Below are positions 18,391 through 49,204 of a stretch of 64,000 nt of DNA, one piece after another. The DNA comes from Atractiella rhizophila (Eukaryota). The notes under the pieces were generated by a model. It ran no database searches. It was not told the DNA's origin and saw only the letters and a list, made by a program, of their open reading frames with translations. Each line of letters begins with the position of its first letter. Position 1 is the first letter of the stretch. The stretch lies in contig MU271402.1 in the NCBI GenBank assembly GCA_021432655.1, forward strand, positions 1-64,000, in the 5' to 3' direction. The translations under genes were made by a program, and so were the position numbers.

Positions 18391-21076
18391 TCACGGCTCG
18401 ACCTCGTCGTATATGGGCCAATAAGCAAAGGGTCCAACTGGAGTTTCTGGATGATCAGGATTATGAGCATAATCCTCCTCTTCAGCCGAACTCCAATTTC
18501 CCACCACTCCACTCCTGCTCCCAATCCCGCCCGGCTGTAGACCCTCCAGGCGCCATCTGTACCAACCAACCAACCAGAAAAATCTTAGATCGTCACAACG
18601 AACAGGAAAGAAGGAGAAAGACAGAGCGGTACGAACCTATCCTCGCCCCCGTACCCTACGACGAAAGTCCAATGAGGGATCAACGCTTCTCCTGGCCTCT
18701 GTTGTGCGAGACGAACACAACCGTGGGTTTTGATATCTTGTCCGTGTCCACCAAACGGCCGTCTGGTGCCTTCGAAGTAAAGGGTGGGGAAGGAGTCGTT
18801 TTTGAAGTCGTTTCCGTACCCGTCCCTGGTGTTGGAACGTAGTCGTTCCCTCGGCGTCGGTTTCAGGTGTGGGGGTTCGACGAGAGTGAGCTTCATGGAC
18901 CTATAATTCAGCAGTTGATGCGTTGGTGGACATCAGAAGAACAAGGGAAGGAGACGTACATGAGGTTCCCAACCGCCTCTGGGGATCTAGCGATAGGTTG
19001 ATCATGGAAATTGAAAGCGTGAAAGATGCGATAATCAACGAAAGCGTAACTTCCAATCCAGACTCCTTCCACACCCGCCCAATCCGGACTACACCATTCC
19101 CGTCTCGTCCTCCCTTTCCCTTTCCCCTTCCCATCCTCCGCATTGGCTGCCAAAGCTGAAATGAAGGCACGGTCCGGGTTGACTATCTCTCCCCTCCTCC
19201 TAGTATCCAACGGAGGGGGAATGGGTAACTCCCAATCATCTCCCTCCTTCTCTTTCCCTTTGCCCTCCTTCCCAGGACCGCGACACTCATCCACCCCCGT
19301 TCCCGTTCCCGTTCCCGATGTTGTTGTAGAAGCGGACGCGGACTTTCCCATCCTGGAAAGAATGCGCTTCAACCCTCCATCGGCCTCGACCTCAGCCTTC
19401 CACTCGTGCCTCATCGAATGCGCATTGTTCCACATCACGCTCCACAGTCCTTCCAACAGCGTCCAATGCACCGTCCCATCCGGATAGAGCGGCGCAAAGC
19501 GGTGGTGTCTCTGCATCCGGCTCACGCTCTGTTGCCTGTTTGCGTACCGGGTACCGTCCGCTTCTGCATCGTCATCGTCATCGTCCTCGTTGTTATCGTG
19601 ATATGATTGTTCTTGTGGGTGCGAGGAGAGGGGAAGGGTATCGGGGACGGCGTAATTGCTCAACCTGTACGCTACCGCTCTAAACGTTCCACGATACGGC
19701 AGCGGTCTACCTCCGCTTCCGCTCCCAAACAGGAAGTCCAAATCCGACGAGAGGAGGAAAGGCTGTCGTCTCTGACTCGCTCCCTCATTCTCATTTCCGT
19801 TCTCGCTTTGGGAGGACGGACGGAGGGGTAGACGCCAGGCGGGGAGGTAGGGTCCGAGGAGGATGTGGAGTTGGGAGCGGAGGGAAGGGTCTGGGAGGGG
19901 GATGGAGAGTGGGAAGAGGATGGGAAGCTCGGATCGGTGGACGTGAGGGTGCGTTTGGGTGTGGATCGTCGTCTGCATGGGCTTGTGGCGTGGACGGAGG
20001 TTGTAGGTTGTGTGGGTGTGGTGGGGAGGGACGTAGTCTGAGTCTTCTGAGTCTTCTGAGTCGTCGGAGTCTTCTTTTGAGTTTTCGTTGGTGTTTGTGC
20101 TGATGTTGCTGGTCGTGGCCGTGTTGTTGGTGGTATTGCTCGTGAGTAGTATATCTTCCATGATGGAATCTGGCCCGCCCATCCTCTCGTCCTCATCTAC
20201 ATCCGCACTGTCCATCCCAGCGTCCTGTACGACATCCACCATCTCCTCGTCACCATCTTCCTCCTCTTCCTCCTCATCATCCTCGTCGGAAGAAGAAGAG
20301 GAAGAGTCAGAATTATCATCCGGATGAAATATAGCCAGCTCTACATCTCCATCCTCATCCCCATCCAAATCCAAATCCTCCATGGTGTTCGAGTTGATGG
20401 AAGTGAGCGCATGAGCATGACTGTTGGTAGAGGACGTGTTACAGGACACGATGGAACGGAGGAGGTAGAACTGATGGAACCCCACCGGGTCTGAAGCGAG
20501 CAGGGACTGGATGAACGCGATGTTCTTTGATGGGTTTGGGTACGGATTGGCGGTGCGAAGGAGACGGAGGAGGGTTTGGAGGGTGGTGTTGTAGTTTTGC
20601 AGCTGTTGATATCACATCCTCAGCATTAGCATTGCACTCTCCAATCCAGTTCCAATAATGAATGATGGTGTCACTAAAGGGACAAAGAAAGAAAGCAAAT
20701 GAACCAGCGAATGTGAGTGACGCACCTTCTCCTCATCCTCTTCATCTAATCTAATCCATCGCTTCAACACCCAATACATCTTCACCCTCTCCTTCCATCC
20801 CTCTCCCTCTCCCTCTCCTCCACCTCCACCTCCACCTCCACTTCCACCACTTCCACCACCTCCACCAGCCAGTTGAACAACAGGCGACCCAACACCACGC
20901 ACATCATAACACTCGTCCCAAAGACCTCGACAGACGCACTTCCACAACGAGCCGTCCGGATGGATGAGCGCATGGAAGGACTTGCACGTGAGCGAGAGGG
21001 CGAGGAGCGTGGGTGGCGGGAGCGGAGGGAGGGAGAAGATGTGGTGGAGGATCTCGGGTGGGAGCGACAGGAGCAT
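18391..21076 (-). CDS. F-box protein of a basidiomycete family with long acidic low-complexity insert
   Basis: N-terminal F-box MLLSLPPEILHHIF...LALSLTCKSFH. C-terminal motifs DWAGVEGVWIGSYAFVDYR, LYFEG, GCVRL, HWTFV...GEDR, EGLQPGGIGS..GVVGNW and PVGPFAYW. Confidence 0.85.
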
Positions 21077-21289: not shown

Positions 21290-24041
21290 CTAACCCAATC
21301 CAGCCTTCTGCACCTTCTTCAGCATCAGATCCTCGTACTCCCTCATTCCCCCATCCAGCTTCATCAGCTGTCCGCCTCTCAGCCTGAACACCGTGACACC
21401 CGCGTCTCATCTTCCTCTTCAGCCTCACCTTCTTCCTCCTCTCCCGCTTCGTCCCTCTCCCCTTCGATCACGTAGCGTATGATCCATCTGTGCACCTACA
21501 TCAATATCTACTTGATGATGAAGAAATTGGAGGTGAAACTAATGTGGAAATCGAGAAGGTAAAGTAGAAGCGCACCTATCGTGGGACACGAGCACCACCG
21601 CTCCTTCCCACTTAACCAGCGCCTCCGCCAACCCGACAATCGTATCCGCATCCAAATGAGTCGTCACTTCATCCAAAACCAACAAATCCGGGTCCGCCAC
21701 CACAATCTTCGCCAACGCCAACCTCACCTTCTGCCCTCCCGACAAATTCCTCACCGGCACATCAGTCACCAATCTCCCCTTCAACCCAAGATTCGCCAAA
21801 CAGCTCCTCAACTCCTGTTCCCCCAAATTCAGGCCTGCAGCTTGGGCGGCCGCTGAGAGGAAGGCGTGTGAGGTCAAGGAAGGGTCTGATAGGCCTGCGC
21901 GCGTCACTGATTCCACCGCGTGCTGAGAATAGTATCCGACCTTGGCGCGCGGGTGTCGCGTTACTGTCCCTTTTGAAGCGGGAAGTGAGGAGGTGAGAAC
22001 TCTTATCAGAGTAGATTTTCCAGACCCGTTCACACCACAGATGCCGATTCGATCTCCAGGGTGCACGACGAGGTTTATACCCTTTAGAGTATCCTCTTTC
22101 GCTCCTTTATATCTCACGTCCACATTCTCCAGGGATACCAGACTTCCCGTAAGTTTCGACTTCTCCATCGTAGAAGGGAAAGAGATGACAACAGTCGGTT
22201 CGAGTTCGGGGATCTCGATCGCCTGTCTACTAGTCGTAAAATATCCCACAGCATCCCGATTGAGCTTGAACCGATGGCCCTTCTCGTTCCTCTCCATCCC
22301 AAGTCGATCGTCAATCTTCTTCTGTTTCGCCGCCGCCTGTTTCAGCTTCTTATCGTCCCCCGTCTTTTTTGCAGCCTTCACATTCTCCTGAACGGATCCA
22401 ACCATGTGAGCCTTCTTCTTATCCAACGCTTCCTGCATCCTCGTCAAATAAAGAATCTTCAGTCTCTTCTCACGCTCCCACGAAGACAATGTGCCCTTGT
22501 ACAGTTCTAGCTTCTTCTCTAAACCGGCAGCGGTACGGATCATGATCAAGTCTTCACCGACACCGTCGGCAAAGTCACGGTCGTGTGTGACGAGCAGGAG
22601 AGAGGTCTGTTTAGAGAGCGTGTGGACGAGGTAGGATTGTAGCCAGATGACGGCAGGCAGGTCGAGGAAGTTGGTGGGCTCGTCCAGACAGAGAATGTCC
22701 GTTTTTTGGACCAATGCGCTTGCGAGGAAACATCTGTGGTATTGGCATGAGTGTTCTTTGTTTGTCTGGGTTGGTGGGAGAGGAATGGACTGGAGGGGAC
22801 ACGAACCGTGTTCGCCATCCTCCTGAGAGTTTGGAGAAGGGAGAAGAGATCATGTCTTCTGAGAAACCGAGACCTTTTAAAACTCGACGCGATAGGCTCT
22901 CGGTGTTATTCGAATCCATCTACCACCGGTCTTGGCTCAGTCTATACGGACGAACGCACGAAAGAGCATTGCTCACAGCTTCGAGCGCCATCCTGATCTC
23001 TTCCAAAGCCTCCACAGCACCTCTCAACTCTTCCTCCACGCCGTCCCCCTTCGCTGCATCCTCGTCCACATTTTCCAACCTGAAAATCGCATCCACTCAA
23101 TTCTCAATCTACAAAAAAGCTTATGGAGCTTGGGAGGCGTACGCGGCTTCGGAATCCTTTAGTGCCTGTTCACCGTCCAACAACGCCTTGCGAGCTTTCG
23201 CTCCCCTCGCCCCAGACCTCTTGCTTGCCACGAGCTTCAACTCCAACAGTCTCAGCCTTGCCTTCTCCAATTTGAATTGACGATATGCTCTGAGCGCTGC
23301 GAGGGTATCTTGAGATTCCAACGGTTTTTCCAACACTGTCACCAGCAGCACAATAGGGACGTTAGATCATTCGATAATTTATCGGAGGGGATGGAACGGT
23401 GTGAGGGGGATGAGAGAAAGACGCACGATTGAGTTCGCGTAAGAGCTTCTCTCGCCTCCTATCGCTCTGTACGACGTGTTGGAGCACGCTCACCTCCTCT
23501 TCCTTTCCTTCGATCGACACCGCGAGGGAATCGTCGTATACGTCGCTCGTGATGATTGTCTGTCCGAGAAGGAGGATCCTCAGGTTCCAAGGGATTCCAG
23601 GGATGAGGCCGTCCGCCATTGCTCGTAGGAGCGCTACATTCCACACAAACGCATGGAAGAGAGTTTCCTCAGCTTTCTGAAATCATGGAATTGTAATGGT
23701 AATGGTAGAAAGCGAAAGTTGGTTGGGTAGGACGCACTGCTCTTCCCGCTCCCGTTCCTCCCGACGAGAATGTATCGACCTCCTTCTTTGATCTTTAGAT
23801 GAGCATGATCGAGCACTTCCTTGCCGTCGATCGAAATCGTCACATCTTTCAAATCAATCTTCACCATCACCATTATTCGTCAGAGGCCATGCGATGCGCG
23901 AGTGCAAAGGAATGTAAATGTGGAAGTGGCGAGACTCACCTCCTTCGATTCCGGCGCATCGAGACAGTCGAGCGCGAAACGAGACTGCTGAGAGGTCGCG
24001 ATGATCGTTGGTGCTTTAGGTTGAGATGGTGTGGATGTCAT
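21290..24041 (-). CDS. ABCF-family soluble twin-ATPase (no membrane domain); apparent 1-nt frameshift in last exon
   Basis: Walker A GRNGSGKS and GVNGSGKS, signatures LSGGWR and LSGGQK, Walker B LCLDEPTNFLD and LVLDEVTTHLD, H-loops VTHDR and VSHDR. Confidence 0.92.
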
Positions 24042-24686
24042 CTCTTTTACAACTGCGCTTTATTCCCAGATGCTCCTTGATGGAGGGGAGGGATGGAGGG
24101 GGAATAATGGAATGAGAACAGATAAAAAGTACCCCATCGGTCAGGGCGTGACTCATGAAAATGACTCGAGTTTGTCAACGGCTTAGCAACTTTCAATTTT
24201 GCAGTTTATTGCAGAGCGCAATTTTTGAGCTTGAATCGTTTCAGAGCAATGCAACAATGGCGTTGTGAATATTGTGCTTCGAATGAGTCCCTGGCGGATT
24301 CATCCGTGCTTGTTACGGTTCTCTCCTTTATGACATAGGCCAACTTCGAGTTTGCAGCATTCGGAAAGGTAATCATAAATGCAAGCTAGCAAGGCAAATG
24401 CGTGGGATAGACCACATAAATACGATATCCTATTCTTTGCTAATTGCTGAAGAAGAGAGTCTGAAAATCTTAGCCAGAGCTCAAACGTCCAACACACTTG
24501 ATTGTCCAGTGAAACATTTATATCGCAGCGCCAACCAGCTCACCTTCGCTTCTACCCTTGTGCCCTAGCAGTGTTCGCTCAACTTTTTCAATACTAAGAA
24601 ACTCCCCATGAACTCCATTCGTCCAATAACAATACTTGTAGCTCCCTTTTCCGCCCGCTTTAACCAAGGAACAAAAAAGCACCAAG

Positions 24687-25088
24687 ATGAATCGAGTGCT
24701 GCCCAACCTCCTCCGTCCCGCTCTCCTTCTTCGTCCTCACGCCAGCTCCCTCCGTCCGCCCCACTCGCGGTCCTTCTCCCTCCTCCTCTCCCGCCCATCC
24801 TCCCTTCCAACCACCACCACCCGCCAGTCCCTACCCTCCCTCCCATCCTCTACACCCCTCGCACACTCACTAACCGCCCCAACAACACCAGTCATACCCC
24901 TAGCGCCGTCACTGTCGATAGGCGGAGGAGCGACGCAGATAAGGACGGTGAAGAGGGGAGTGGACTACCAACCGTCGAAGGTGAAGAGGAAGAGGAAGCA
25001 TGGGTTCTTGAGCCGGATCAAGACGAAGGAGGGGAGGAGGATGTTGGAGAGGAGGAGGGAGAAGGGGAGGAAGTATCTTGCTCATTAG
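24687..25088 (+). CDS. MRPL34: Mitochondrial ribosomal protein L34 (bL34m)
   Basis: Presequence-like N-terminus followed by [45 protein letters not shown]. Confidence 0.95.
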
Positions 25089-26627
25089 ACTTTTTCTCTG
25101 TCAGAGACGATGTTCGGTAAGCTTTGCTCTTTCTACTCTTGTCGTTGTTGGGATAGCGGTGATGTTTGCTGTTGCAGTTGGCCGGCAACATGTCACTAGT
25201 TGGTTGGAGATTCGAGGGGGGTTGGGTATATGTGTAGCTGTTATGCTATGGTTGAAGAGATATTCTGCTTAACGGAGACAATTAATTCGCCTTTTCGTTT
25301 TCCTTCCCATGAGCTCAGTCAATGGTCCAACTTTACCAGTCGAGAAGCTTCGAAGAAGGAGGGTGGTGACATTGAAGAACACCTAACGATTGAATCCGCA
25401 ACAAATTCATTTACTTATTTCATTCTCCTCTTAATCTGCTCCGTTCTCTTCAGCAAGAAAACGTTCCCGTATCCAGCTGTCCATGGTTTAAACTCGCCTC
25501 CCTTCACAATCGGCGGCAAAGCATACGATGGCTGTTTGGGAGCACGGTCCCAACGATGGCAGGATGGATAGACATCACACCATCCTCTCATGGAAGCAGC
25601 GGGCTACAGAACCTCCGTAGCCTATAAAAGCTTGAAAGATTTCCGTCTACACAAGCAAACAGGCAGGACTTGAAAGTCTACCTACAATGGCAACAGACTT
25701 TGCATGACTTGTGTAGACGAAGCTAAGGTGGAGCCTATAGAAGGATTCCGGCTGCTCGGTTGTGTTGTGTTCGTTCTGGGAAGAAGGTCGCTCCATATGG
25801 CCTTCTCAAGGAGTGGAAAGGCCAGCCTTTCAATCAATACTGCAAAATCAGAGGTGACGCAGCGTGTCTGTCAATGGTGTTCTTTACGGACTCAAACAGA
25901 GAACGTAAAGCTGAAGTACACGGCGCGAAGTCACCTTATGTGAGTCTACATTGCGCACTTAAACCATCAACCGATGCCTCACTCGTCGTTCGGTTCGCGA
26001 TGGTAGTCGTCTAACTCCATCCCAATCCCTCACCCAATTGAACAGCGGTGCAGTGTTCTCTGATTCGGTCCCAATAATATGACATTGACGGTATGTTCAC
26101 ATTCGAATAGTTGCAAATCTACCTCAGGAACTGCTCCCATAGTATACCAATTGACAGGCCGAATAAAAAAGAACCAAACGGAGCTATATTTTGATTATTT
26201 CATCTTGCGTTAGATGGTGAATCTTGAAGTCTACGAGCTTTCCATAGTCGTGGGTGCAGGTGGAATAACGCCTTCTGTAACCTGGTACACTTGGCGCTAA
26301 GCAGCTCGAGAGCGTCGGGCTTTGTCGAATTTGATTCAGGCTTGCGAGCACCCGAGTGCCAGCTTCTCGAGGCCGCCACATATATGATATTATAGGCGAA
26401 CAACAACGGAATGGGAGTGAATCAGACCGAGACGGAAATCCTGCAGGATGCTCGACCTCCGTGGAGACAGGCTAGTATGTGATTCCTCACCAAATATAAA
26501 CATTCTCCTGGCCATTTGTGTTTTCCTTCGACTCGTTAATATTGCCAGTAGACATTCTGAGGAGCCTTTATTGTGCGTCGTCTACTCTCTGCCAGTTCGC
26601 CAGATTCAGTCTGATCATTGTGACAGA

Positions 26628-27860
26628 ATGTCCCCATCACTTCCTCCCGAGCTACTCTCTCACATGTTCCTCCTCATCCTTCCGTATTGCCATTCTCAAT
26701 CACACCTTTCCTCCAACTCAGGATTAGAAGACTTCACTGGCCCCTCGTCTTTCTCTCTCGCCGTAGGCGTATACGCGAGGTCTCTCTCGAACTGCGCGCT
26801 AGTTTGTGCAAGTTGGCGTGACCCGGCGCAGAGGTTACTTATGGGATTGGAGCGGCAAGTTCGGTTCGATCCAAGGATGGGACTGGGAGAGAGACAGATG
26901 CTGTTGCCCGCGACCTGGATAAGGGAGGTCGTGGTCAAATCTGTCACAGACGTAGAAATGCTGGAGCGAGCGGGAGTGAGATGGACCAAGTGCCGTCTGA
27001 ACAATCGATACGCGTCGCCCGAAGAGTTTTCCTTTGCCAAACTCGGCGACGTCGTTGAGCGATCCAAACCGCATGAGACAGGGAAGAGAGAGTTGGACGT
27101 TGCGGTTCCGTTCTATTATCTATCGTCACCTTACGGCGCTTGGTGCGCAGAATCTGAAAGCGCTGGTCTGGCAAGGGTGGCAGCCAGCGTTGGAGTGTTG
27201 GCCTTGAGCATGACTTGGACCATTGCCTTCTCGGCGTACTCGACCCTCTTCGACAGTTCTTTCCTCCACGCGCGTTCGATCAGCCTCCACACCTTCCACC
27301 TGAGTGCCGATGAAAAGCTCTACCTCCCCCCTCTATCTTATTTCTCCACGATGACCAAGACGATAAGACACCTGTCCCTGTCCTCACTTGACTTCAACAT
27401 CATCGAACCCCTTTCCGTACTATCTCCACACCTCGAGTCCTTTGCATTCAATCATGGCGCCAGCCTACTCGACGTGCCAAACAAGATATTCGAAGATTGC
27501 AGTTTTAACGCACTGAAAAAACTGTCGATCAGAGGGCCTGGCTTTGTACGGCGCGATTTTGGAAAGGAAGATGAGAAAGTCAGATTTTTCGACAGTCTTC
27601 CTATGGGGATAGAAAGGTTTGAGGTGTCTGCTGCTCCGGGAGGCGACATCGACGTTGTGGTGGATTTGATGCTGCGACGGATGCCACAGTGGGGGCGACT
27701 GACATGGTTGAAGCTGCCCATCCAAAGGGCCGAACTCGTACTGGCATCTGAAGGGAGAGGGCAGCAGTTGAGCCTCCTTTGTGAGGCAAAAGGTGTATGG
27801 ATGGAATTCGATCCGCCCAGAGAGATGCAGCACTCGACGAACTTGTCGCATTCGTTGTAA
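26628..27860 (+). CDS. F-box / RNI-like (LRR) protein, intronless
   Basis: MSPSLPPELLSHMF...LSNCALVCASWRDPAQRLL, LRR-like segments (IRHLSLSSL, LKKLSIRG, LTWLKL), ending LLCEAKGVWMEF. Confidence 0.8.
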   Translation: MSPSLPPELLSHMFLLILPYCHSQSHLSSNSGLEDFTGPSSFSLAVGVYARSLSNCALVCASWRDPAQRLLMGLERQVRFDPRMGLGERQMLLPATWIREVVVKSVTDVEMLERAGVRWTKCRLNNRYASPEEFSFAKLGDVVERSKPHETGKRELDVAVPFYYLSSPYGAWCAESESAGLARVAASVGVLALSMTWTIAFSAYSTLFDSSFLHARSISLHTFHLSADEKLYLPPLSYFSTMTKTIRHLSLSSLDFNIIEPLSVLSPHLESFAFNHGASLLDVPNKIFEDCSFNALKKLSIRGPGFVRRDFGKEDEKVRFFDSLPMGIERFEVSAAPGGDIDVVVDLMLRRMPQWGRLTWLKLPIQRAELVLASEGRGQQLSLLCEAKGVWMEFDPPREMQHSTNLSHSL

Positions 27861-27879
27861 TCAAGTTTGATGGGAATAC

Positions 27880-28681
27880 AATGCACTGTCTGCTGGTTGC
27901 TTGACTATGCTAGGAAAGTGCTCGAATGGGTGGAATTTTGTAGGTGAAATTGACAACTCTTGTAGCTCAGGGGGAGAGAAGACGAGGTTTCGGGTTGCAG
28001 GAATGGTAGATTCTTCGGTCGATGACTCAGGGGTCGCCGGCGGTGGTCGAGGCCAGGAGAGTGTAGCCTTCTCTAGCGCAGGTTCTTTCGTTGCCTCTAC
28101 TAAGCTTTTCCCGCCGATCTTCGGAGAGTTTGGTGTAGTTGTTTCTTGGGGAGCAATCTAGAAGTCAGTAACGAAGTAGAGCGGAGGAGTAGAAGTGTCG
28201 GCTAATAACAAGCGACCGAAGAGTGACTCTTCGTTGAGCTAGGATTCTATTTCCAATTGCCGGCATGACGAATGCTCCAAAGACGACCTGCACTACAATC
28301 CTGGCGGAAGGCACGTCGTTCTCTTCTCCTATTCCTTCCACCACTACTCTCTACCCTTCCCTCGCCGCAGGGACATCCTAATCCACCATCGTTCCTTCTG
28401 CTGCAACGCTTATGGTTCCCCTTCCTCGCCTTTCTTAGCTGACTTTCCTTTTCTACTTTCTCTCAGGCTTTCCGTTCTCTTCGTCGATAATAGCTTCTTC
28501 TTTTGTTGGACCTCCTTGGTGGCTTCCTTCTCTTCTCATCACCGGCTGAACCACCGCACTCCTCTGACTTCCTAGAATGGCAGAGACTACCTCAACCTAA
28601 CTGCCTTCTCGTCTTCTACTCCGACCTCTCTCTTGCTTCCCGTTCCCGACGTCTTCGTGCTGATCCATATCCTGCTACTCC
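27880..28681. other. Mirror-image block 1 (reversed without complementation); left boundary approximate (~27860-27890)
   Basis: The unreversed complement, read left to right, encodes the Vms1/ANKZF1 C-terminus. Confidence 0.9.
27891..28679. CDS. VMS1: Vms1/ANKZF1 C-terminal half, mirror-encoded (complement read left to right)
   Basis: TTNELIRSFHELTHLK (end of VLRF1 domain), EMIRKGRLEA, ankyrin SLLHLASSSSQPIIVRWLLTEKQLDP...GRTAYEV...VRTAFRAAR, and VIM GLTEEQKMRLERERRARAAEARL, then GIGR*. One in-frame TGA at ~28455, consistent with local indel errors. Confidence 0.88.
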
Positions 28682-28706
28682 NNNNNNNNNNNNNNNNNNN
28701 NNNNNN
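28682..28706. other. Assembly gap (25 N)
   Basis: Run of 25 n. Confidence 1.
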
Positions 28707-29617
28707 AGACCTCTACGTCTACGCGAAGAAGTTTGCTGATCGACCATGCAGCAGAGTTGGTAGTGAGCTGATCAGGGTTAATAAGGACAAGTCGCCAGCC
28801 AAGGCGCGTACTTTGTAAGACTCGCACTGGAGTGACTTAGTCTACCCTACAGAGAAAGACGAGGACCGTTTTCGCTGGTGAAGAAAGGCAGAGGAGGGGA
28901 GAGCGTATGGGTCGTTTAACCTTCTATCCTGCCTTCACCTTTTCCTCCACCGACTCCAGAACTTGCTCTTTTAAGTCCAGAAGCGGTCTGTCAAGTACCT
29001 GCAACCTCTCTTTGAGCGTCAAGAACGAAAACTTACAGGCTGTAATTGCTCCAACCACAAAGAGCCCTTAGTACCCCACGGAAGATTACTAAGCTTTATC
29101 GGACGGCCTATTATGGTAATAAAAGTAGTGGACGCGGTGAGAGAAGTGGTAGTTTTAATTAAAGAAGAAAATGTCTGCGCTAGCCAACTTCTGACTGCTG
29201 AATGCAAAATACATGCTAAGTTACGGAGACAAAAAGTGGCTTGTGATTGCAACTCATAGCGTCACTTTGCAAAGTGACAGTTCTTCTTTAAGATCTCTCG
29301 GAGACGTTGTTCAACCGGCGTCGTCGGAGAGTTGCAAGGCTTGCCGACGAGTACGCCACAAGTGCAGAGTAAGCTCCGTACGATGTCGATACCTCCCTTG
29401 CTCTTAGCTAGTAGTTTCTCTACGTACTTCGGGCACTAGTTAGGTTGTAAAGACTCCGACGTTGCTGTTTACACCTAGGGAAGGAGTCGCGAATGAAACT
29501 AAAGAGGAAGCGAAAGGGCCCCGAGTACCTAGTCCCAAAGTGAGGTCATTGCTCTTGTAGTGCCTACACCTCAACTACGTTGACCTTAGCTAAAACTCAC
29601 GCGGTGGTAGTTCAACT
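28707..29617. CDS. 3' half of the Zn2Cys6 transcription factor, mirror-encoded (complement read left to right)
   Basis: LEMQMRFFKRLA...EVAEVLNEKIQVFARQFMDVGEKLA...LPDNTIIFITCATLFTIK...RCSRLIRGMLQLWRE...DPFLSAYFDFSF. Introns GTACGT..CAG, GTTGGT..TAG and GTACGA..CTAAC..CAG. One or two indels; the stop is at ~29575 or 29617. Confidence 0.8.
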
Positions 29618-30007
29618 TTAAACAGTTCGAATGTACAAGGCATTGGTGTAGGACTGTCGAAACTAAAAGGGACGAACTAAAAATTCGTGTGTTTGCCACA
29701 ACCAACACCAGTTCGAGTGCATAGAAGACTAAGAGTATCGTCTCTCGCTTGTAACTCCCTTATTATAATGTAACAACAATGTGATTACGCGTACGTTGTT
29801 CATTTTCCCTTTGATATACGCTAAACCACATCAAAAAGACTAAGAAGATCTAAATAAGGGAGCAACACAACAAATAGTTTTGTTCGAAACGTGCAGCTTA
29901 TATAAGCTTATACTCATATTATGTAAATGGGAGGTTTAAAAGGTTAAGTAATTATGAGCTTTAGGAAGGTATTACTACTAGAACCACGACTTAAAGTACG
30001 ACGCTTA

Positions 30008-31650
30008 AGTTTTGAAAGCATGGGGAAGGGGTATTCCTCCTTATATCTGGTGTTACGTTCGCCGCTGTGACAACGGGTACAGTCGGGGCAGCGATTGAAG
30101 TCTACCTAAAGTGCTTGATCACCATCTTTCATAACATCACCAACGGTATTATTCGATGCATCCAGGGTGGGATGCATTCTTAATCATCGGGTAGCTGATA
30201 CTTGTAGCTTTCCTCCATGGGCTTGTTTCACGAAACCGAAAACTGGACCTCTTTATGTCTAACCGTGTAATATTTGTCCCTACTTTACTGCGTGTGGTTT
30301 GGTGCAGACGCAGCTTAGAGTAAGGGCGAAGAAAGTTCCTCGCGCAGCAACTGAGAAGCAGCGGCTGAACTAGGAGGAGGGGTCGTTCCTTTCACGGAGG
30401 TTACTCGTTAAATGGTGCCACACACAGTCCGGTTTTAAATAGGTTCCCAAGAACCAGGGTTTGCAGCAGTAGTATAAGGCTCCGGAGCAGTAGTATAAGG
30501 TTCCGGAGCAGTAGTATTAGAAGACAAAGTATTTGGCGAACTTAAAACTTAGACTCCAACTCCTTACTCTCCTGCAACATATTGTTAGCTAGTGCGGGAA
30601 ACTCCGCTGATCCCTCCAGCCCAAGCAAGGGAAGAGCCAGTTGTCCTATAGATACAAGGAAAGTCAGGCTTAAAGGGTAGACAGAGCTCCTTTACAACCG
30701 AGTGGATATTACGTATCGGGTACTGTTGCAGGGGGGTGAGGATTTCTTCCTAAGCAGCGCGTTTCGCGAGAACTCTCGCCGGTTTTCACCATGACGGCTT
30801 TATAACTGAAAAAGAGCTCCGGTAAGGAGGAAAGGGAAACTTCTTCGCTCCTTCTACAGTATTCGCTACCACTCCGCCATTGGTCTTCAGTGCCGGAACT
30901 GGAGCACGACCTATAGCAACATTTCCTTCTGGGTTGTCTGAAAGGGACTCCGTGTTAGGAGAAGGGTAGAGTTTCAGACGTACAGCAGTAGAAGGGGTTG
31001 CTCGTTAAGAGGAGGAAACTTTTAGCTACCATCTGTTTGCTGATAACAGGGCTCTACGACTAGCGAAAACCCCCATAGCACCACTCCAAACCTCTTTGGT
31101 GGATAGAGATTTGATACTCGCTGTAAAGTCTCAGGTCCTTATGCTTGGTCAGCCCATTGACAAACGAAACATCTCAAATCGCATTTAGAAAGCTAGGAGA
31201 AGTGGCAGAGGTCCTCTCTAATACTTTAGCAACTCCCGAACATCCTGAGGTCAGAGGAGCATTTCTCCCAGTTTCAAGTCTTCTTTTTGGCCGGCAAATT
31301 TGAGGGAGTTTTCAGGGTGACTTAGTAGTATCTGACAAAGTAGGAGAGGAGGTACCCCTCTTTGCCGCCGTCTCAATACCTTACGTCGCTCTAGAAGAAG
31401 TAGTATGCGACCTTACCAGTTTTAGGACAATGATCAACGCAATGATACTGTACATGGACTCCAGTTTCCTTACTGGGGTGAAACGTCAAAAAGGAACTCC
31501 ACAGAGGGACATCTTATAGCTCCGTACGAGGTCCAGATGTAGTCGATCGACTATCGAGGGTGTATCCTTTCTGTGAAACCGAAGAAAGCAGTCGAGTCGC
31601 AACTACCGGAGCTAAGCAAATCAAAGACGAACTGATCGACGTCGTGCGTA
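30008..31650. CDS. 2OG-Fe(II) oxygenase (fungal prolyl-4-hydroxylase-like family), mirror-encoded (+ strand read right to left without complementing)
   Basis: MRAAASQAE...AKLYKANSYPT-GGFSKPHHDTPKSDQHLGTIVVCLPSIFKGGELLV...WVFLYNDIQHEVKAVTSGYRLTIAYDIF...LKGRD...YYGN...IPPYGEGVRKF*. HxD...H triad and 2OG-binding Arg present; ~6 GT-AG introns. Confidence 0.92.
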
Positions 31651-32280
31651 CTACGAAGAGAGAGCACTTAAAACGCGACTTAAAACGTTGTTAGAACGAG
31701 CACCCTGGGGGAAATTATTTGAACTTGCCTAGATTAGGAACTGATATAGACTGACGTGCTGAAACTGAACTGAAACTACGGACAGACGGCTTACGGCTTT
31801 CCATAGTTAAAGCGTCTACTCTTCGTTTCGGACTAGTATTTCTTCATGTTGCTATCCTATTCGCATTTCTTAACAATACAAGTTTCGTCTATTGCCGGAC
31901 TGATAGTTTCAAGGAAATGTCTCCCGAACGAAGAACTAAACGTTGTTACCAGTAAAAACCAAGGATAGGATGAGTCGCGACAAGCTTCGGACATCGCATA
32001 GGGACAACCAATACCTCTTGTACCTCTTGAAAGTTCGTCTAGTTTTAGTTAGTCTAAATTGCGACATCCTAGTTAGTTACAGGGTTAACCCTGTCCAGGC
32101 TTCGCTAAACTCGTTATTGCAACTACGACACTACGACACCTAAGGATCAGTCTTTCTTACATTCACCAGGTGAGCTCAGTGCACCTCGTACACTTTCCGA
32201 CTACTTAGCTCGAGTGACGTGAGTTTTTGCTGCCTAGTCGGTATAAGGCCAGTATTTTAACAACATGATATAATAATAAG

Positions 32281-32706
32281 TACCGTAGGCCCATGTAGAA
32301 GTGCGAAGGTGAGCTAAAGAATGTTAGAGAGCAGGGCGCTAGCTTACTACCTAGAAAAGGACGGTGACTGGTTGTTTGGAACTGAAGTCTGAGTCTCTGA
32401 CTGCTTCTAAACCACCAACCTCCCCGAGGCTTCGAAAACTGAACACGACACACGCGACACTTCCGGAAATCCTCGCACCTCCTTGTCTCCCTCGTAACCT
32501 CCTCGCTAACCGTATCCATATTAAACTTCTCCTTCCAACCTCCATCCCTCCCACACAGCCTCCTCTCTACCCTCCTTCCACTCGAAAGTACAAAACCAAC
32601 CTCTACAACACAACAATACCAGCTCCGCCCTTCTCTGGAAAACGAAAAGACTCGGCAGATCGGTAAAGTTCTAATACATTTGATGATTAAAGGACGGTAG
32701 TCGAGA
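32281..32706. CDS. VMS1: Vms1/ANKZF1 N-terminus with C2H2 zinc finger, mirror-encoded (complement read left to right)
   Basis: MASGYIFTLPLDFLQSL...LTCAVCAVKAFRSVEEQREHWRSDWHRYNLKRKVGG..GVSEERWEE, then intron GTGAGC...CTAAT...CAG (32579-32702). Confidence 0.9.
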
Positions 32707-34210
32707 ATTGATTTTGTGATGTCCCGGCTGATGGATTGTATAGACTCGACCGTGAGGTCGACTTCTTGCTTGTCGACTGCTGCCAAACACTCCAAAGTTA
32801 TTCGCAAATACAGCAATCTATTGCGGAGAATGTGGAAGGTGTTTTGCGGTAGAGAAAGTCTCGGCAGGACACCTTCTAGTCTCAAGATATCCTGTGTTCC
32901 ACAGGAATGTCCGTGCAGGATGCTCTGAAGAGCTTGGGCAGTACACACGTCCAACCACTAGATCGGCAAACCTGAACGGGCTTCCAACCGGACATGGAGA
33001 GGAAGGCTGACACACCAAAATAATCTTTTCCCTTTCTTTCTCTGCATTTTCCTCGCTCACCCCCTGTTGCAGCTCTAAGCGATCCAATCCAACCTGTTTG
33101 CACAAATTCGCCGCTGCATTGCGAAACACAGTGCCATCACTGAGTCCCGCTGGTGGTAATGCCGGATTGGCTGGGACCCATTCGGAGAGCAGGAGGAGAC
33201 CCTTTGCTGCAAATATCAGGAATGACGCCAAGAGCGTCAATGCACTTGCCTTGATGTTATCCAGAACCTCATCTAGTTTTAATGCAGACGGGTTTGCGCT
33301 GATTGCCTGAAAAGTACCTTGATTGACCAAAGAAGTGAGAAAGTTCGCCTCGGCAACGGTAAGGTTTGGACAGTGCTTGGATCCAAGTAATAGCCTAACA
33401 TTTTGGAGGAACTGTGACCTTTGTTCTCCTGGCAGTGGGCAAGGACGGTCCCACGGCGAGTATATATGCTGATACCTAAATTTTATTTAATAAGGAACAA
33501 CAGAGCATTGGCACACACATTTCTTCCCATTGCGCACATCGTTCAGCAGTAACAGGAGGAGTCACGCCGGGGACTGCTTGAATATCGCTCTCGCTATGGC
33601 ATTCGATGCTGATCAAAAGGCGGTTGAGGTGGAACGGGAAGTCGGACCAGTCGCGCAGCTCAGGTTTAGCACCTTCATATTCCTCGTCCTAGACATGGAT
33701 TATATTAATAGACATGCCATGGAATAAATGACTGTTACAAGAAGGCGTTGATATGTAGAATCCGTCCACAACGCGTCGACTAGAGCTTGACGACCTCCTA
33801 CAGTAAAAGTAACTTCCTTCTCCACAGAAGACGTAGCGACTGGTGCTGTTGATGGAGACTCAGAGTTGGATGGGATGTCCGATGGAGAGAGTAATGAGCA
33901 TGGGATAGTGAGTGTGAAACAGCGGTGACAGGCTTTGCTTATCGTAGCGCTGGGTTCACATCGAGCTTTCTGCTTTCTACCTATGCGACAATGGTTGTAG
34001 TCTATTTCTTTGGAATTTCGCAGAGATTACTTACATTGAACGCAGGCGCCGTGACGCTTGCGACAAATCAGCAACCAGGAGGCATTGGAGGCGAAAGGGA
34101 CGGACTTTGGTTCGCGGTCGCTTTGCTCCAAACGGAACCCTGCCTTCTGCAGCGAGAATGGCAGGGTCAGCAGTTCTCTTCTGCGGCTTCACACCTGCGC
34201 CTGTTTTCAT
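32707..34210 (-). CDS. Zn(II)2Cys6 fungal transcription factor, 5' half
   Basis: Spliced cluster ACVQ-CRKQKARCEPSATISKACHRCFTLTIPC (~33900-34056) and middle-homology-like KGLLLLSEWVP. The frame runs to ...SISRDITKSI at 32707 and continues in mirror block 2. Confidence 0.88.
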
Positions 34211-34650
34211 GCTGTCCTTCTTGCAAAGCCCTCTCACCTCTCGTGACTGTCAGCTTCGTCGCGATAAGGTTCGGAACGTTTTCCAAGTAACTTCGAGGTT
34301 AAGTCGAGGCGACGAGCGACAATCTTGCAGGTGAGCGTTGTCCATCTGGCCGTCCGATTGGAAATCAGCCTTCAAGTTGATAACTTGTAGGAAAACTGGG
34401 GGCAAGTGGCACCACTCAGAGGAGATGCGGGAAGGTTCGCATTCTCAGCGAGAAGAAGGAATATGAACTTGAATATCTGCCCCACTCCTTCAAATTGCTT
34501 TTGAGTCAAATGATCCTGCACTCCCTCATCCTTCATCCTTTTCGACGACGACGAAAAAGGCGGAAGGCACTTGGTGTGAAAGCAAAGGAAAATGTGAGTC
34601 TCCATTGACGACGATCTCGCAAAGATCCGTCAACTGAGAAGATGTGTTAG

Positions 34651-35154
34651 ATGACCTCTGTGCATATAGGACTTGTTGAATCCATTCCAGCGAGTTGCAC
34701 TCCTGGGCTTGCACTTCTCCCACACTTCATATCAGCCCTCGACAGTCTCGCGTCTTCCCCTCCCCCAGAGCTCTACGATCTCATCGCTCCTACAACATAC
34801 TTCAGCCTCAATGGCACTCGCATTCCCACTCCATTTCTAGAAAAGGCAGAAAAAGGCATGTTCCCTCAACGAGCTGCGAGGTTGAGCAAATTCTTTCACA
34901 CTCTCGAAAAAGCGTGGGATGTAGAAGAGGGAGAAGCGAGAAGAACTGTGTTTTCCATGAGCGAGAGTACGACAGTTTTCAAGGCGGATGAGAGCAGGGA
35001 AGAGGTGAAAGTCAAAGAGTTGTCTGCGATCGTTCTCGAGAGAAAGGTGGACGCCAAGTTCGGATGGGTTGTGGTGGAGATGATGAGTTGGTTCGATCCT
35101 GCTCCTGTTGCCAACAAGAAGAAATCTTTGGAGACAGCGGAAGTGAAGGAGTGA
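34651..35154 (+). CDS. Small NTF2/SnoaL-like fold protein
   Basis: Intronless 167 aa: FISALDSL..LIAPTTYFSLNG...RTVFSMSESTTVF...MMSWFDPAPV, a pattern typical of SnoaL-like proteins. Confidence 0.6.
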   Translation: MTSVHIGLVESIPASCTPGLALLPHFISALDSLASSPPPELYDLIAPTTYFSLNGTRIPTPFLEKAEKGMFPQRAARLSKFFHTLEKAWDVEEGEARRTVFSMSESTTVFKADESREEVKVKELSAIVLERKVDAKFGWVVVEMMSWFDPAPVANKKKSLETAEVKE

Positions 35155-35470
35155 GTTAGCAGGACAGATGAGAGAGGCACTGTACTCAAGCTTCGCTTCC
35201 ACACTTCTTCCTAGTTTTATGGCAATGAACATGTTAAGTCAATGATCACAAAAATGCGTTTCAGAGGACTCAGACCTGACAATGGGTGCTTGCTCTGGCT
35301 GTACAATGAGACAACACATGCTATTGACTGAGTAACACAACTAACACTATAGACAACTCTGTATTTATTTACTCTTGAGTCACATATTCATCACACCACG
35401 CTTGAAAGACGAATCAAACCTGCTGTTTACGACATAAAAAGACAGCCTCCCCTGAAGTCTATTGTTTTTA

Positions 35471-36847
35471 TTAATTCGTTGTCTTCTTTGCCTTTTTCCA
35501 CTCCTCGTAAGCTTCGCATACTTTCCTATTTTCCTTACTCCCCTTCTTCCATTGGGTCGTATTCTCCACAGCGCTTTCAATACCATCTTTCTTAACCATC
35601 TCCAACAGTTTCGTGGCATCGTCATCCCCCTCTACATCGAAGAGGTAGGCAGCCGCGATTCCCTTCAGAAGATGATCCACTCCTAGTCCTCGCTCGATGC
35701 ACATGTTGGCAGCACCAACCAATCTCTCGTTCGGGCTGAGTTTTCGGATCGGTTTCCTTCCGACGCGAGAAAGGTCGTCGTCGATGTGGGGATTCGCGAA
35801 ACGTTTGAGGGTGAGACGGATGTACGAAGCATGTTCGTCGGCTGAGAACTTGTGTTTCGCCTTCAAGCCTTCGCCAGACTCTGTGATGGCTGCTTCGACT
35901 AGAGAACGGATTGAGGAATCTGAAATGGAGTGTTGGGTATCGTGATAGCCTTTGATATGGCCGACATAGGCTATTGAACATCTTGGTCAGAACTCATTTC
36001 ATACACAGATTGCAGGATGAGATGCAGAAATATCTTGTTAACACTGAAGTGATGTAGGAAAGAGACGTACCAAGAATGGCATGCCCACAGTTCAGTGTGA
36101 ACAACTTCCTCTCCAGATACGGTTCGATATCATCCTGAACATTCATGCCCTCCACATGCACCCTGCCTTTGATTTTATTTTTCTCCACGATCCACTCATA
36201 AAACTTCTCAACTTCAACGACCAGCTTATCATCAACATGTTCGTCGCTCGATTTCCTCGAAGAGGAAGTAGGAGGCACGATTCGATCCACTTCACAGGAG
36301 GCGAATCCGATCTTGTTCTTCACGTACTCCTTCAACTTGTCCTCTTCAAGGTGAGCAAATACCAGCTTTTCAAGTTCACGAGTACCGAAGACCATATTCT
36401 CGCAGGCGATCACCGTGGCTTCCTTCTCTACCTTCTTCTCAAACCTCCGTTTCAAGCCATTCGCGATCGTCGGTGCCACCTTGCAGAGAATTTCTGGTCC
36501 AACGCTCGTCGTGATAATGTCCGCCTTCGCTATTTCTTCAAGGACGGAGGGATCGGATGTGAGCAATCCAGAGAAGTCGAACACCTTGTCCTCAATGGGA
36601 GCGGTCGCGAGCAGCTCGACTCGATACCAGTCCTGCTCGTTCAACGCATCGATGAGGGGTTCAGCAACGTCGACGAAGGTAACATGGTATCCTGATGAAG
36701 AGAGGAGGGGGCCAATAAAACCTCGTCCACTATTGCATTTAATAATGAAAATAGGATAATGAGACAAGAAGGAGAGAAAAAGGCGTACATATTGCCAGCT
36801 CCAAAGTGGACTGCGATTTTATCGTTGTGGATACCATTGGAAGCCAT
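35471..36847 (-). CDS. mtlD: Mannitol-1-phosphate 5-dehydrogenase (MtlD type)
   Basis: AVHFGAGN-GRGFIG, ADIITTSVGP, VIACENM, VDRIVP, VEKFYEW, ERKLFTLNCGHA, RFANPHIDDDLSRVGRKPIRKLSPNERL. Confidence 0.95.
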
Positions 36848-38388
36848 AATTGCAGTGATAATAGATAACTTGGAACGCAAGGTTAGTGATGATGGATCTG
36901 AGGGAGGATCTGAGGAGAATATTACTTTGGGTGGTAGGAAGAGGCAGTCTTTATAATAATCCCAGCGTTATGGCAGTTGACGTCACGATATAACTTAAAT
37001 GACGTCGGTTAAGGGACCTGGGGTTGAGAACCAACGCTTCTTCTTTTCCGGCAATGCCCGAAAGCAGGAATGATAGAAATATGTGCTGAAAATGACCAGG
37101 TGAAAGAAGAGGGACTGAAACGGATGGAGAGGATAAGAGAAAGGGCCGTCGCGGTTTTATGGTTCTTCGGCCAAATACCCGTCCCTCCATTCACCATTCA
37201 CAACCATCAGGAACGTTTGTTGAAAATGTAACTGAACTGGCAAAGAAAAGGCCGAACCCCAGATGTTGTCAATTTCCTACGGACAGGTCTGGAAAGCTGA
37301 AGATTGATTGAACTTTGCGCGGAAACAGATCGGCAGCCACCTTCGAAGTGGAGAAACAAATTTGAGTTTCTTCTGATGAGCATTGAGCAAAAATGCGTGG
37401 AATCGCCAAGGACCGGTCATTATACATTTAGTATGTTTGAGTGATGCTGCAGGAAAGCAAAAGGAAAGGAACACTGGGAGTCGTGATAAGAAAGCTTCCT
37501 CCTTCGTTACACACACAAGTGTTGCCCGGCTAAACATACCTGGAAATATGCGGTGTGTGGTGAAAAGGAACCAGTTGCCTTTGGTGAGGAGACAGTGAAA
37601 AAGGGCACATGATTGAAGATCTGTGGCCATCCTCAAGGCTTAAAGCGCTGCCTCAACTACAGTCGTGTTAGATCTTATGACAATAATTCAGCGTCAGCCT
37701 GAAAGCACCATGCAAACTGGGGCCATGGGCGGCAATGTAACTTTTTCCATAAAACAATCTTGAAAGCATCAGCAACTACAGAATACACCTTTTTGTACCA
37801 CTCATCTGATCGGATATGGGGCACATAGTCAAAGTAATCAACAACTTGAACGAGTCTGTGATTGCAACATCGTCTAGACCCTTTTGCCTTGCTATGCACT
37901 GGTCCGTCTCACCCCCCGTTCCGATCCACAGTCGAGAACATATTCGCTTGGACTCACAGGAAGACAATTCTTTATCATTTATCCTCCTAAAGCAATGACG
38001 TGAAATCACTTTTGACAACAGCATTAAGGCTGAGGTAGATTTCGCTTGAAAACTTGCAAGAGCTGTCTTTAGTCAAAAGTTTGATGAAGTTGAGAGAAGC
38101 GATTGATGCTGCAGCCCAGTGCTGTTTGTAAGCGCGTCTTGTGCTAGGGGTTCTATTCAAGTTGTTTTTTCATTTACTCATATCTGGATTCAGCAGAAGC
38201 TGGACTAATTTTCAGTGATTTAAAAACTTGACAATTTTATTCAATACAACACACACTGAACCTACATATTGAGAATAATGAAGTAACAAGCCAGATCAGT
38301 CCTGCTCAATCACAAGAAATATTTCCACAATTGCTCTACATTTAGCACAGGGCACGAACGGCTCGGTGCAAAAACATAAGTAGTTGCC

Positions 38389-48316: not shown

Positions 48317-48767
48317 TTGTGTATCCCTTCCAGTTGATGAAGTATTCGTGTACAAATGCAATTACTCATCAACGTCCGGCATTCAGCATATCTGTACATG
48401 TGAACTTTCTCCGTTTTCATCGCATTACAACTATGTTCGCTGGCACAAAGTGTCCTTTAAAAGCAGAAACACACATGCGCCGTGACAATGTCCCTAATGC
48501 TGAGGCGAAAGTCCGAAGAAAGAAAAATATTAGTAGTTCTCATTTTACGCAAACATGACGAGCTTGCTCCTGACATCGTACTCCCAAGTTGTTAACGCCA
48601 ACTGTTCCGCGTTACGCTGAACATAACAGGCCAGGCAGACCGGTCGATGAGTTACCATATCTCTTTACCTAGTCCGCAGTTCCTGATTTTTTTTGTCAGC
48701 CACTTGTAAGAATACATGTCAACGGTTGCGCTTAGCCTTTTGGAAGCCGAGACAACTTCCAACTCTC

Positions 48768-49204
48768 ATGACCACTAACTTACCTCCAAACAACCATTCT
48801 CCCCTATCTCTTCCTAATCTCCTACCATGGACACTGTACTCCTCGCTTCCCTCCTTCCGTTATGTGCAGCCTTACGCATCGACGCGCATTGTCTGACCTT
48901 TCACAGTATGCGGTTTCTTATATTATGCGGTTTCTTTCACACTGACACTCGCTCACGTTGTCATACAACAGTAATGCCCATGCCTACATTGGGACGATCA
49001 GCGTCGGAGGTAGGATACGGATGTACTCATGTGGGAGAACAGTTTTGACCTCTGGATTTCCCTTTCGAATGCGTTAGGAATCACCACAGAACAGTCTAAT
49101 GTCCCTGCTCAACTCAACTATATGGTTGGTGCTGCAGCAGGTCTCATCAACTTTGCGACTGTCAAATTCGACATCGCGAAGAAGAGGGACGCTGAGGTAA
49201 ATTA
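48768..49204 (+). CDS. Possible small spliced membrane protein
   Basis: Intron-like GT..CTGAC..CAG segments and a last exon ITTEQSNVPAQLNYMVGAAAGLINFATVKFDIAKKRDAE. Phases not fully resolved. Confidence 0.35.

What the first reader, a model, noticed from the sequence alone, without database searches (positions are those of the whole stretch)
27880..32706. About 4.8 kb of mirror-image DNA flanking the gap, hiding three genes from all six reading frames
Seen: no ORF of 60 aa or more between 29.4 and 31.9 kb, and CTA/TAG look frequent by eye. Reading the + strand backwards without complementing, or the complement without reversing, gives long protein frames with recognisable motifs and canonical GT..AG introns. 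The blocks on either side of the Ns are mirrored independently. Established: antiparallel replication and recombination produce reverse-complement inversions, not pure reversals. Inference: a gap-extension step wrote reversed-only sequence. The 25-N placeholder is typical of long-read gap fillers such as PBJelly, and indels cluster here. By my junction placement block 2 is 4,000 nt (+/-1). The corrected order is F-box(+) Vms1(-) 2OG(+) TF(-) SnoaL(+) mtlD(-).
Basis: partly seen in the sequence, partly recalled or inferred. Interest (0 to 1): 0.9.

Follow-up and report, generated by a model that had tools for sequence, protein, structure and literature searches.

The report
Letter-reversed DNA beside an assembly gap
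About 4.8 kb on either side of a 25-N gap in this fungal scaffold was written backwards without complementing, a software error and not biology, and it hides two genes and the end of a third from ordinary annotation.

Summary
Window 27886-28681 (796 nt) and 28707-32700 (3994 nt), either side of the 25 Ns at 28682-28706, are each letter-reversed on their own.

Evidence:
- A cross-validated 5-mer test prefers the reversed reading in 9 of 9 bins inside the blocks and in 3 of 117 outside.
- Contigs of three public runs leave the window at 27886 and enter it at 32701. Their overhanging letters equal the reversed block ends, 30 of 30 each.
- A 686-aa fungal protein stops aligning exactly at 32700 on the deposited sequence. 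After un-mirroring it aligns through the junction to residue 658.

The un-mirrored blocks carry three things: the C-terminal 40% of a Zn2Cys6-like regulator, a 2OG-Fe(II)-oxygenase-like gene (weak profile support), and a Vms1-like gene interrupted by the gap (motif-level support only).

- The claim that indels cluster here, and the attribution to PBJelly, are untested.
- The labels F-box and SnoaL got no significant Pfam support.

This is not a biological feature. Interest is low, except as a data-quality warning.

The parts
27886..28681 (.). Block 1, 796 nt, written letter-reversed (not complemented). Its true left end is deposited position 28681.
   Evidence: Contigs of X1, X2 and X3 leave the window behind 27886. 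Their 30-letter overhang equals the reverse of 28680..28651, preceded by the C shared by 27886 and 28681. The 6-mer log-likelihood is -42 with a held-out model.
28682..28706 (.). Run of 25 N. In the true order it lies between deposited 27886 and deposited 32700, inside the Vms1-like gene.
   Evidence: The conserved middle of the Vms1 architecture is absent from both blocks (architecture from PMC3639040, passages).
28707..32700 (.). Block 2, 3994 nt, written letter-reversed. Its true right end is deposited position 28707.
   Evidence: The overhang before 32701 (X3 30 letters shown of 255; X1 and X2 18 letters) equals the reverse of 28736..28707. 6-mer log-likelihood -556. P0001 aligns through 32701|32700 only after un-mirroring.
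28707..29576 (.). C-terminal part (about 275 residues plus introns) of a Zn2Cys6-like regulator gene. It is readable left to right on the complement of the deposited letters and continues the natural exons at 32701-34195(-).
   Evidence: tblastn of P0001 on the un-mirrored copy: residues 326-526 in one alignment across the junction, then 525-555 and 564-658. Coordinates converted and the stop codon found.
32701..34195 (-). Natural-orientation N-terminal part of the same regulator gene. The public gene model here is a 185-aa fragment (P0002).
   Evidence: P0001 residues 13-411 align to 34195..32700. Spliced joints CT..AC appear at 33473/33517, 33687/33738, 33977/34032 and 34056/34106 in X3. P0002 maps to 33474..32821.
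30269..31650 (.). 2OG-Fe(II)-oxygenase-like gene, readable right to left on the deposited + strand letters (true strand +). HxD and the distal H lie at deposited 30905-31084.
   Evidence: A home-made profile from 41 bacterial PF13640-bearing frames puts the un-mirrored frame first of 1394, E 0.0024. Nothing comparable appears among the 1389 deposited frames. A trimmed profile gives E 0.19 but aligns HxD, H and R. GT..AG introns of 46 and 54 nt join the frames. Start and stop codons.
32281..32700 (.). First exon and part of an intron of a Vms1-like gene (true strand -), with a C2H2-like finger at deposited 32443-32514. It runs into the gap.
   Evidence: The pattern C-x2-C-x11-14-H-x3-6-H matches 1 of 1394 un-mirrored frames and 0 of 1389 deposited frames. 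ATG confirmed. GTGAGC follows the exon.
27886..28679 (.). C-terminal part of the Vms1-like gene (true strand -). It ends in a VCP-interacting-motif match at deposited 28629-28661, with the stop at 28677-28679.
   Evidence: RX5AAX2R (consensus from PMC5468458, passage) matches 1 of 1394 un-mirrored frames and 0 of 1389 deposited frames. The in-frame stop between the two frames has a 57-nt GT..AG solution. A home-made ankyrin profile did not hit it.
26421..27860 (+). Natural left neighbour, a 479-codon open frame. Its stop lies 27 nt from the un-mirrored stop of the Vms1-like gene.
   Evidence: Pfam F-box-like only at E 0.35, 11.1 bits against a cut-off of 24.3.
35994..36818 (-). Natural right neighbour, a mannitol dehydrogenase family gene (N-terminal exon).
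   Evidence: Pfam Mannitol_dh, E 4.1e-45.

Best explanation
The two stretches flanking the 25-N gap are true genomic sequence written in reverse letter order without complementing, each stretch on its own. The real locus reads: left flank up to 27885; then deposited 28681 back to 27886; then an unclosed gap; then deposited 32700 back to 28707; then the right flank from 32701.

This is a computational error in how the record was produced. The genome did not do this.

Most likely (inferred, about 0.6), a finishing step extended both contig ends into a scaffold gap. It failed to close the gap, left a minimal N run, and wrote both extensions with only half of a reverse-complement operation.

The consequence is that a Vms1-like gene, a 2OG-oxygenase-like gene and the last 40% of a Zn2Cys6-like regulator cannot be seen in any of the six reading frames. 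The public gene model of the regulator is a 185-aa fragment.

The confidence of 0.95 is for the artefact itself, not for the step that made it.
For: Shown:
1. Contigs of X1 and X2 (one sample, organism code A, about 2.5% different from the window in the flank: 26 of 1030 letters) and of X3 (organism code B, 5 of 1104) align up to 27886 and from 32701. Their overhangs are letter for letter the reversed ends of block 1 and block 2, 30 of 30 each (tables 7 and 8).
2. X3 carries spliced joints and a poly-A overhang, so it behaves as RNA-derived. Its contigs also run into both un-mirrored blocks (255-letter overhangs).
3. P0001 (686 aa) aligns on the deposited window only with residues 13-411, ending exactly at 32700. 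On the un-mirrored copy, residues 326-526 cross the junction in one frame and the alignment reaches residue 658.
4. 5-mer likelihood: 9 of 9 inside bins favour the reversed reading against 3 of 117 outside.
5. Only after un-mirroring do a 2OG-type HxD...H...R frame, one RX5AAX2R match and one C2H2-like match and GT..AG introns of 45-75 nt appear. That intron size fits the 43-104 nt seen in the flanks.
6. The reversal pivots on the N run, and each side is reversed separately.

Inferred: the step that made the error. The PBJelly paper (passages) describes extending both flanks, a 25-N gap definition, and leaving Ns when a gap is only reduced.
Against: - No reads of the assembly's own strain could be identified as such, so the deposited orientation was not tested in its own raw data.
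The 2OG call therefore rests on a weak home-made profile (E 0.0024, and 0.19 after trimming). The Vms1 call rests on two short patterns.
- A home-made ankyrin profile gave no hit on the Vms1-like frame.
- No paper describing such a bug turned up in the phrase searches.
- The error could equally have entered after assembly.
Confidence: 0.95

Rival explanations
1. The reversal entered after assembly. It could come from hand editing, format conversion, submission or database processing, or from the copy used for this scan, and not from a gap-extension program. This is a rival only for the step that made the error, not for its being an artefact.
For: Nothing in the window identifies the program. 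The attribution to a gap filler is an inference from the 25-N run and the two-sided pattern. The public gene model P0002 is a fragment ending at 32821, before the junction. That fits, but does not prove, that annotators saw the mirrored record.
Against: The two blocks are reversed separately and end exactly at the N run. That is what per-flank extension would produce, and it is hard to get from a single editing slip.
Confidence: 0.3
2. A real rearrangement in the sequenced strain produced DNA whose letters happen to be the mirror of the ancestral locus.
For: None beyond the deposited sequence. The strain's own raw reads were not examined.
Against: No known replication, repair or recombination process yields reversal without complementation (established knowledge). 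The breakpoints coincide with an assembly gap. Three runs from two organism codes, one of them 0.45% from the window in the flank, carry the un-mirrored order at both junctions. Three genes would be destroyed at once.
Confidence: 0.005
3. An ordinary misassembly: a reverse-complement inversion, or a foreign or strain-specific non-coding insert.
For: The ORF desert and the lack of laid contigs would also fit an insert.
Against: tblastn searches both strands, and on the deposited window it finds nothing for P0001 residues 412-686 at significance; the best hit is E 0.56. The overhangs of independent contigs equal the reversed, not the reverse-complemented, block ends. The strand-symmetric k-mer model would score a reverse-complement inversion as natural, yet all 9 inside bins score as mirrored.
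Confidence: 0.005

Closest known systems
Reverse-complement inversion misassemblies at contig joins
   Same: A block next to a scaffold gap stands in the wrong orientation, with breakpoints at contig ends.
   Different: In those, the genes stay readable on the other strand and reads still map. Here the letters are reversed without complementing, so no strand is readable.
Deliberately reversed, non-complemented DNA used as a decoy or negative control (Dfam, PMC3531169, search listing only; RRE preprint 10.64898/2026.04.14.718546, passage read)
   Same: The operation and the property are the same: base composition is kept and all homology and coding signal is lost.
   Different: Those are made on purpose and never deposited as genome sequence. 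This one sits inside a public-type scaffold. In phrase searches all 9 listed papers, of 15 holding a term, use the operation as a control or for constructs. None reports it as an assembly error.
Extended but unclosed ('reduced' or 'overfilled') gaps of PBJelly (PMC3504050, passages read)
   Same: Both contig ends are extended into a gap, no overlap is found, Ns are left, and 25 Ns is the program's gap definition.
   Different: The paper describes no reversed output. Whether this assembly used that program is unknown.

Membership tests
Reverse-only (non-complemented) sequence artefact | Oligomer statistics fit the genome only when the letters are read backwards | tested here: met
   Cross-validated 5-mer test: 9 of 9 inside bins negative, 3 of 117 outside. 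TAG/CTA and GAT/ATC frequencies are swapped.
Reverse-only (non-complemented) sequence artefact | Homologues align only after letter reversal, and in frame across the junction | tested here: met
   P0001 stops at 32700 on the deposit and runs through to residue 658 on the un-mirrored copy.
Reverse-only (non-complemented) sequence artefact | Independent sequence data continue from the flanks with the un-mirrored letters | tested here: met
   Overhangs at 27886 and 32701 in X1, X2 and X3 equal the reversed block ends, 30 of 30.
Reverse-only (non-complemented) sequence artefact | The sequenced strain's own raw reads contradict the deposited order | not testable with these tools
   No run could be tied to the assembly itself.
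Reverse-complement inversion | Genes readable on the opposite strand of the deposit | tested here: not met
   tblastn on both strands finds no significant match for P0001 residues 412-686 on the deposit.
Gap extension by a long-read gap filler (PBJelly type) | Minimal N run kept, with new sequence added on both sides of it | tested here: inconclusive
   25 Ns, and both sides affected separately. This matches the behaviour described in PMC3504050, but no program name, log or second gap is available (no genome held).
Fungal Zn2Cys6 transcription regulator | Zn(2)-Cys(6) cluster near the N terminus | tested here: inconclusive
   Paralogue P0001: Zn_clus E 7.4e-4, 20 bits against a cut-off of 21. 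The window's own exon 33703-34026(-) gave no Pfam hit at E 0.01, but aligns to that part of P0001 at 57%.
2OG-Fe(II) oxygenase (PF13640-like) | Profile match over the double-stranded beta-helix core, with HxD...H and a basic residue | tested here: inconclusive
   Home-made profiles give E 0.0024 (first of 1394 frames) and E 0.19, with HxD, H and R aligned. Pfam's own model could not be applied to a changed sequence.
Vms1/ANKZF1 | N-terminal C2H2 zinc finger | tested here: met
   Single pattern match in the N-terminal frame: 1 of 1394 against 0 of 1389. Spacing x13/x5. Architecture from PMC3639040.
Vms1/ANKZF1 | Conserved middle domain (MTD/VLRF1) | not testable with these tools
   It would fall in the N gap and is absent from both blocks.
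Vms1/ANKZF1 | Ankyrin repeat | tested here: inconclusive
   A home-made profile from 27 bacterial Ank_2 pieces gave no hit at E 1 on the candidate frame.
Vms1/ANKZF1 | VIM (RX5AAX2R) at the extreme C terminus | tested here: met
   One match, 6 residues from the stop: 1 of 1394 frames against 0 of 1389. Consensus from PMC5468458.

The most novel reading that the evidence does not exclude
The reversal is systematic and not a single slip. On this reading, a finishing program, or one build of it, wrote every extended but unclosed gap flank letter-reversed. This assembly, and possibly others finished the same way, would then hide many genes next to short N runs. A simple reversed-against-natural k-mer scan of public assemblies would expose them.
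Probability: 0.35. Interest if true: 0.4.

Novelty: not a real feature. Interest (0 to 1): 0.2.

Why it matters
This has no biological meaning. It matters for data quality. Two genes and 40% of a third are invisible to six-frame searches and gene callers. One of the two looks like the conserved ribosome-quality-control factor Vms1. The public model of the regulator is a 185-aa fragment. Absence calls, orthologue tables and completeness scores for this genome would therefore be wrong at this locus.

The k-mer test used here needs no reference data. It separated the blocks cleanly, so it could screen other assemblies for the same error.

Tried and rejected
- Whole genome: none is held, so other N runs of the assembly could not be scanned.
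- Earlier findings of this scan: nothing for this genome. Word searches gave nothing relevant.
- Depth: no contig of X1-X4 was laid on 28408-32679 (table 2).
- Run shares: the best holders held 0.36, 0.35 and 0.25 of the sampled words of 28707-37000. I did not use this as evidence. No RNA holder was listed.
- Paralogues of the hidden genes in the natural part of the window: none. The best tblastn hit was E 0.24.
- The search for related loci with the mannitol dehydrogenase exon in genome contigs: no relative found.
- Ankyrin profile: the first version was built from wrongly chosen frames. After rebuilding, it still gave no hit on the Vms1-like frame and one weak stray hit at E 0.38 elsewhere.
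- A possible 1-nt frameshift in the regulator near un-mirrored 32600: considered, then dropped. A 75-nt GT..AG intron also fits, and the short similarity that suggested it is not significant.
- Pfam on the natural neighbours: no family at E 0.01 for 7 of 8 frames. F-box-like E 0.35. No SnoaL family for 34651-35151, which has no relative other than itself in the large protein collection.
- Literature: no report of reversed-only blocks as an assembly error.
- Left out: direct Pfam, structure or database searches with the un-mirrored proteins, and laying reads on the un-mirrored sequence, because changed sequence may not be given to those tools.
Full report
WHAT IS IN THE SEQUENCE

The window has one N run, 28682-28706, 25 letters long.

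Around it the six ordinary reading frames are almost empty. No ATG-started ORF of 60 aa or more lies inside 29400-31900. No stop-to-stop frame of 100 aa or more lies in 29001-32000. Six stop-to-stop frames of 60-81 aa do exist there. Of 616 sliding windows of 2.5 kb, only 8 hold no ATG-ORF of 60 aa or more, and all 8 start between 29301 and 30001.

TAG/CTA occur 38.3 times per kb in the blocks against 16.6 in the flanks. Their letter-reversals GAT/ATC occur 18.7 against 35.3. Reading the complement without reversing, or the strand backwards without complementing, gives frames of up to 189 aa.

IS IT MORE THAN CHANCE?

I used a strand-symmetric k-mer model trained on one flank and applied to the other. 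It compares each 500-nt bin as written with the same bin letter-reversed.
- All 9 bins inside 28001-32500 prefer the reversed reading (-27 to -93).
- Of the 117 bins outside, 3 are weakly negative (minimum -14) and the median is +47.
- An earlier version with partly self-trained flanks gave 9 of 9 against 0 of 119.
- No other part of the 64 kb shows the signature.

INDEPENDENT SEQUENCE DATA

Runs holding the right-hand part of the locus were found. Contigs of four of them were laid on 22000-38000.

X1 and X2 are one sample (organism code A). They differ from the window by about 2.5% in the flank (26 of 1030 letters in one contig). X3 (organism code B) differs by 5 of 1104.

In all three runs a contig aligns up to 27886 and then continues with letters that lie nowhere in the stretch. 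In all three a contig starts with such letters and aligns from 32701 on (table 7).

A script that printed the reversed ends of the two blocks shows two exact matches:
- The 30 letters behind 27886 are the reverse of deposited 28680..28651. The C of 28681 coincides with the C of 27886.
- The 30 letters before 32701 are the reverse of deposited 28736..28707.

So the true order is: left flank; then block 1 read from 28681 back to 27886; then the gap; then block 2 read from 32700 back to 28707; then the right flank.

X3 also shows spliced joints of 43-104 nt with GT..AG or CT..AC ends and a poly-A overhang (tables 5 and 7). It therefore behaves as RNA-derived. An RNA cannot carry the un-mirrored letters if the genome held the mirrored ones.

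HOMOLOGY

The natural exon 32821-33486(-) finds one longer relative, P0001. This is a 686-aa hypothetical protein that its source names as from Atractiella rhizophila. It has a near-threshold Zn2Cys6 domain (E 7.4e-4).

On the deposited window, tblastn aligns residues 13-411, and the last alignment ends exactly at 32700. Nothing significant matches residues 412-686 on either strand.

On the un-mirrored copy, which was kept inside scripts only, residues 326-526 align in one piece straight through 32701|32700 at 50% identity. Residues 525-555 and 564-658 follow in order. The codon at the junction takes two letters from the flank and one from the block, and a conserved motif follows at once. Reads and homology therefore place the right junction at the same nucleotide.

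A second hit, P0002 (185 aa, same source name), is identical in its aligned residues to window 33474..32821 apart from two modelled introns. It is evidently the public gene model of this locus, and it is only a fragment of the regulator.

THE OTHER TWO HIDDEN GENES

The 2OG-oxygenase-like gene:
- I collected 41 bacterial frames carrying Pfam PF13640 and built a profile from them.
- Among 1394 frames of the un-mirrored window, the best hit is the frame at un-mirrored 30281-30703(+), E 0.0024. Among the 1389 frames of the deposit, the best is an unrelated 43-aa frame at E 0.11.
- A profile trimmed to the domain is weaker (E 0.19), but it is again the only hit. It aligns the HxD, the distal H and the R. 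This is modest support.
- The frames of this gene are joined by GT..AG introns of 46 and 54 nt.

The Vms1-like gene:
- The published architecture is zinc finger, conserved middle, ankyrin, coiled coil, then a VIM at the extreme C terminus (PMC3639040, passages).
- It is matched at two points. A C2H2-like pattern occurs once, in the N-terminal frame (1 of 1394 against 0 of 1389 frames). The VIM consensus RX5AAX2R (PMC5468458, passage) occurs once, six residues from the stop (1 of 1394 against 0 of 1389).
- The two halves lie on the same true strand on either side of the gap, and the conserved middle is missing. The 25 Ns therefore stand for real missing sequence.
- A home-made ankyrin profile gave no hit.
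- The name Vms1 rests on motifs and order only.

- The junctions are 27885|27886 and 32700|32701, not 27880 and 32706. Block 2 is therefore 3994 nt, and the round figure of 4000 is not real.
- 'Indels cluster here' could not be tested. Each frame break I looked at has a GT..AG solution of 45-75 nt. One suspected 1-nt shift was withdrawn.
- F-box-like is sub-threshold (E 0.35). The 167-aa frame at 34651-35151 has no SnoaL hit and no relative except itself.
- mtlD is confirmed as a mannitol dehydrogenase family gene at 35994-36818(-).

HOW IT AROSE

No biological process reverses DNA without complementing it (established knowledge). The pivot on an N run, the separate reversal of each side, and the un-mirrored order in other samples all point to software.

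The most economical story is a gap-extension step that added 796 and 3994 nt to the two contig ends, found no overlap, left a minimal gap, and applied only half of a reverse-complement to each extension.

The PBJelly paper (passages) describes just such two-sided extension, a 25-N gap definition, and leaving Ns when a gap is only reduced. It describes no such bug. I cannot tell which program was used, and a later editing or conversion step remains possible.

Phrase searches of the literature found reversed, non-complemented DNA only as a deliberate control, never as an assembly error.

VERDICT

It is not a biological feature. Its value is as a warning about this record, and possibly about others made the same way, and as a demonstration that a simple reversal test finds such errors.

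Noticed in passing
window 32821-33474 (-): The public gene model at this locus (P0002, 185 aa, 'hypothetical protein') is a short fragment of a regulator whose paralogue is 686 aa. It reads through a real intron (32958-33015 by homology) into a stop.
   Followed up: partly
window 34651-35151 (+): A 167-aa frame, spliced to an upstream exon in X3 and X4 (joint 34593/34651, GT..AG). It has no Pfam family and no relative other than itself in the 5.8-billion-protein collection.
   Followed up: partly
window 30470-30525: About 2.6 copies of a 21-nt tandem unit. Un-mirrored, it encodes an acidic D/E/Y-rich repeat near the C terminus of the 2OG-like protein.
   Followed up: no
window 22928-22974: In X1 and X2, about 20 substitutions and two insertions crowd into 47 nt of an otherwise 1-3% divergent flank. 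X3 skips 22920-22976 as an intron (CT..AC), so this is a fast-evolving intron.
   Followed up: no
window 27858-27860 and deposited 28677-28679: After un-mirroring, the stop codons of the convergent left-neighbour gene and the Vms1-like gene lie only 27 nt apart, so their 3' ends must overlap.
   Followed up: no
window 18501-19000, 24501-25000, 48501-49000: These are the only three natural bins with a slightly negative reversal score (-0.3, -3.9, -14.3). They are isolated, lie inside long natural ORF regions or next to them, and I take them as noise.
   Followed up: no
window 34801 and 34937 (run X4): The overhangs of X4 contigs are sequencing-adapter-like letters, so some contigs of that run carry untrimmed adapters.
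   Followed up: no
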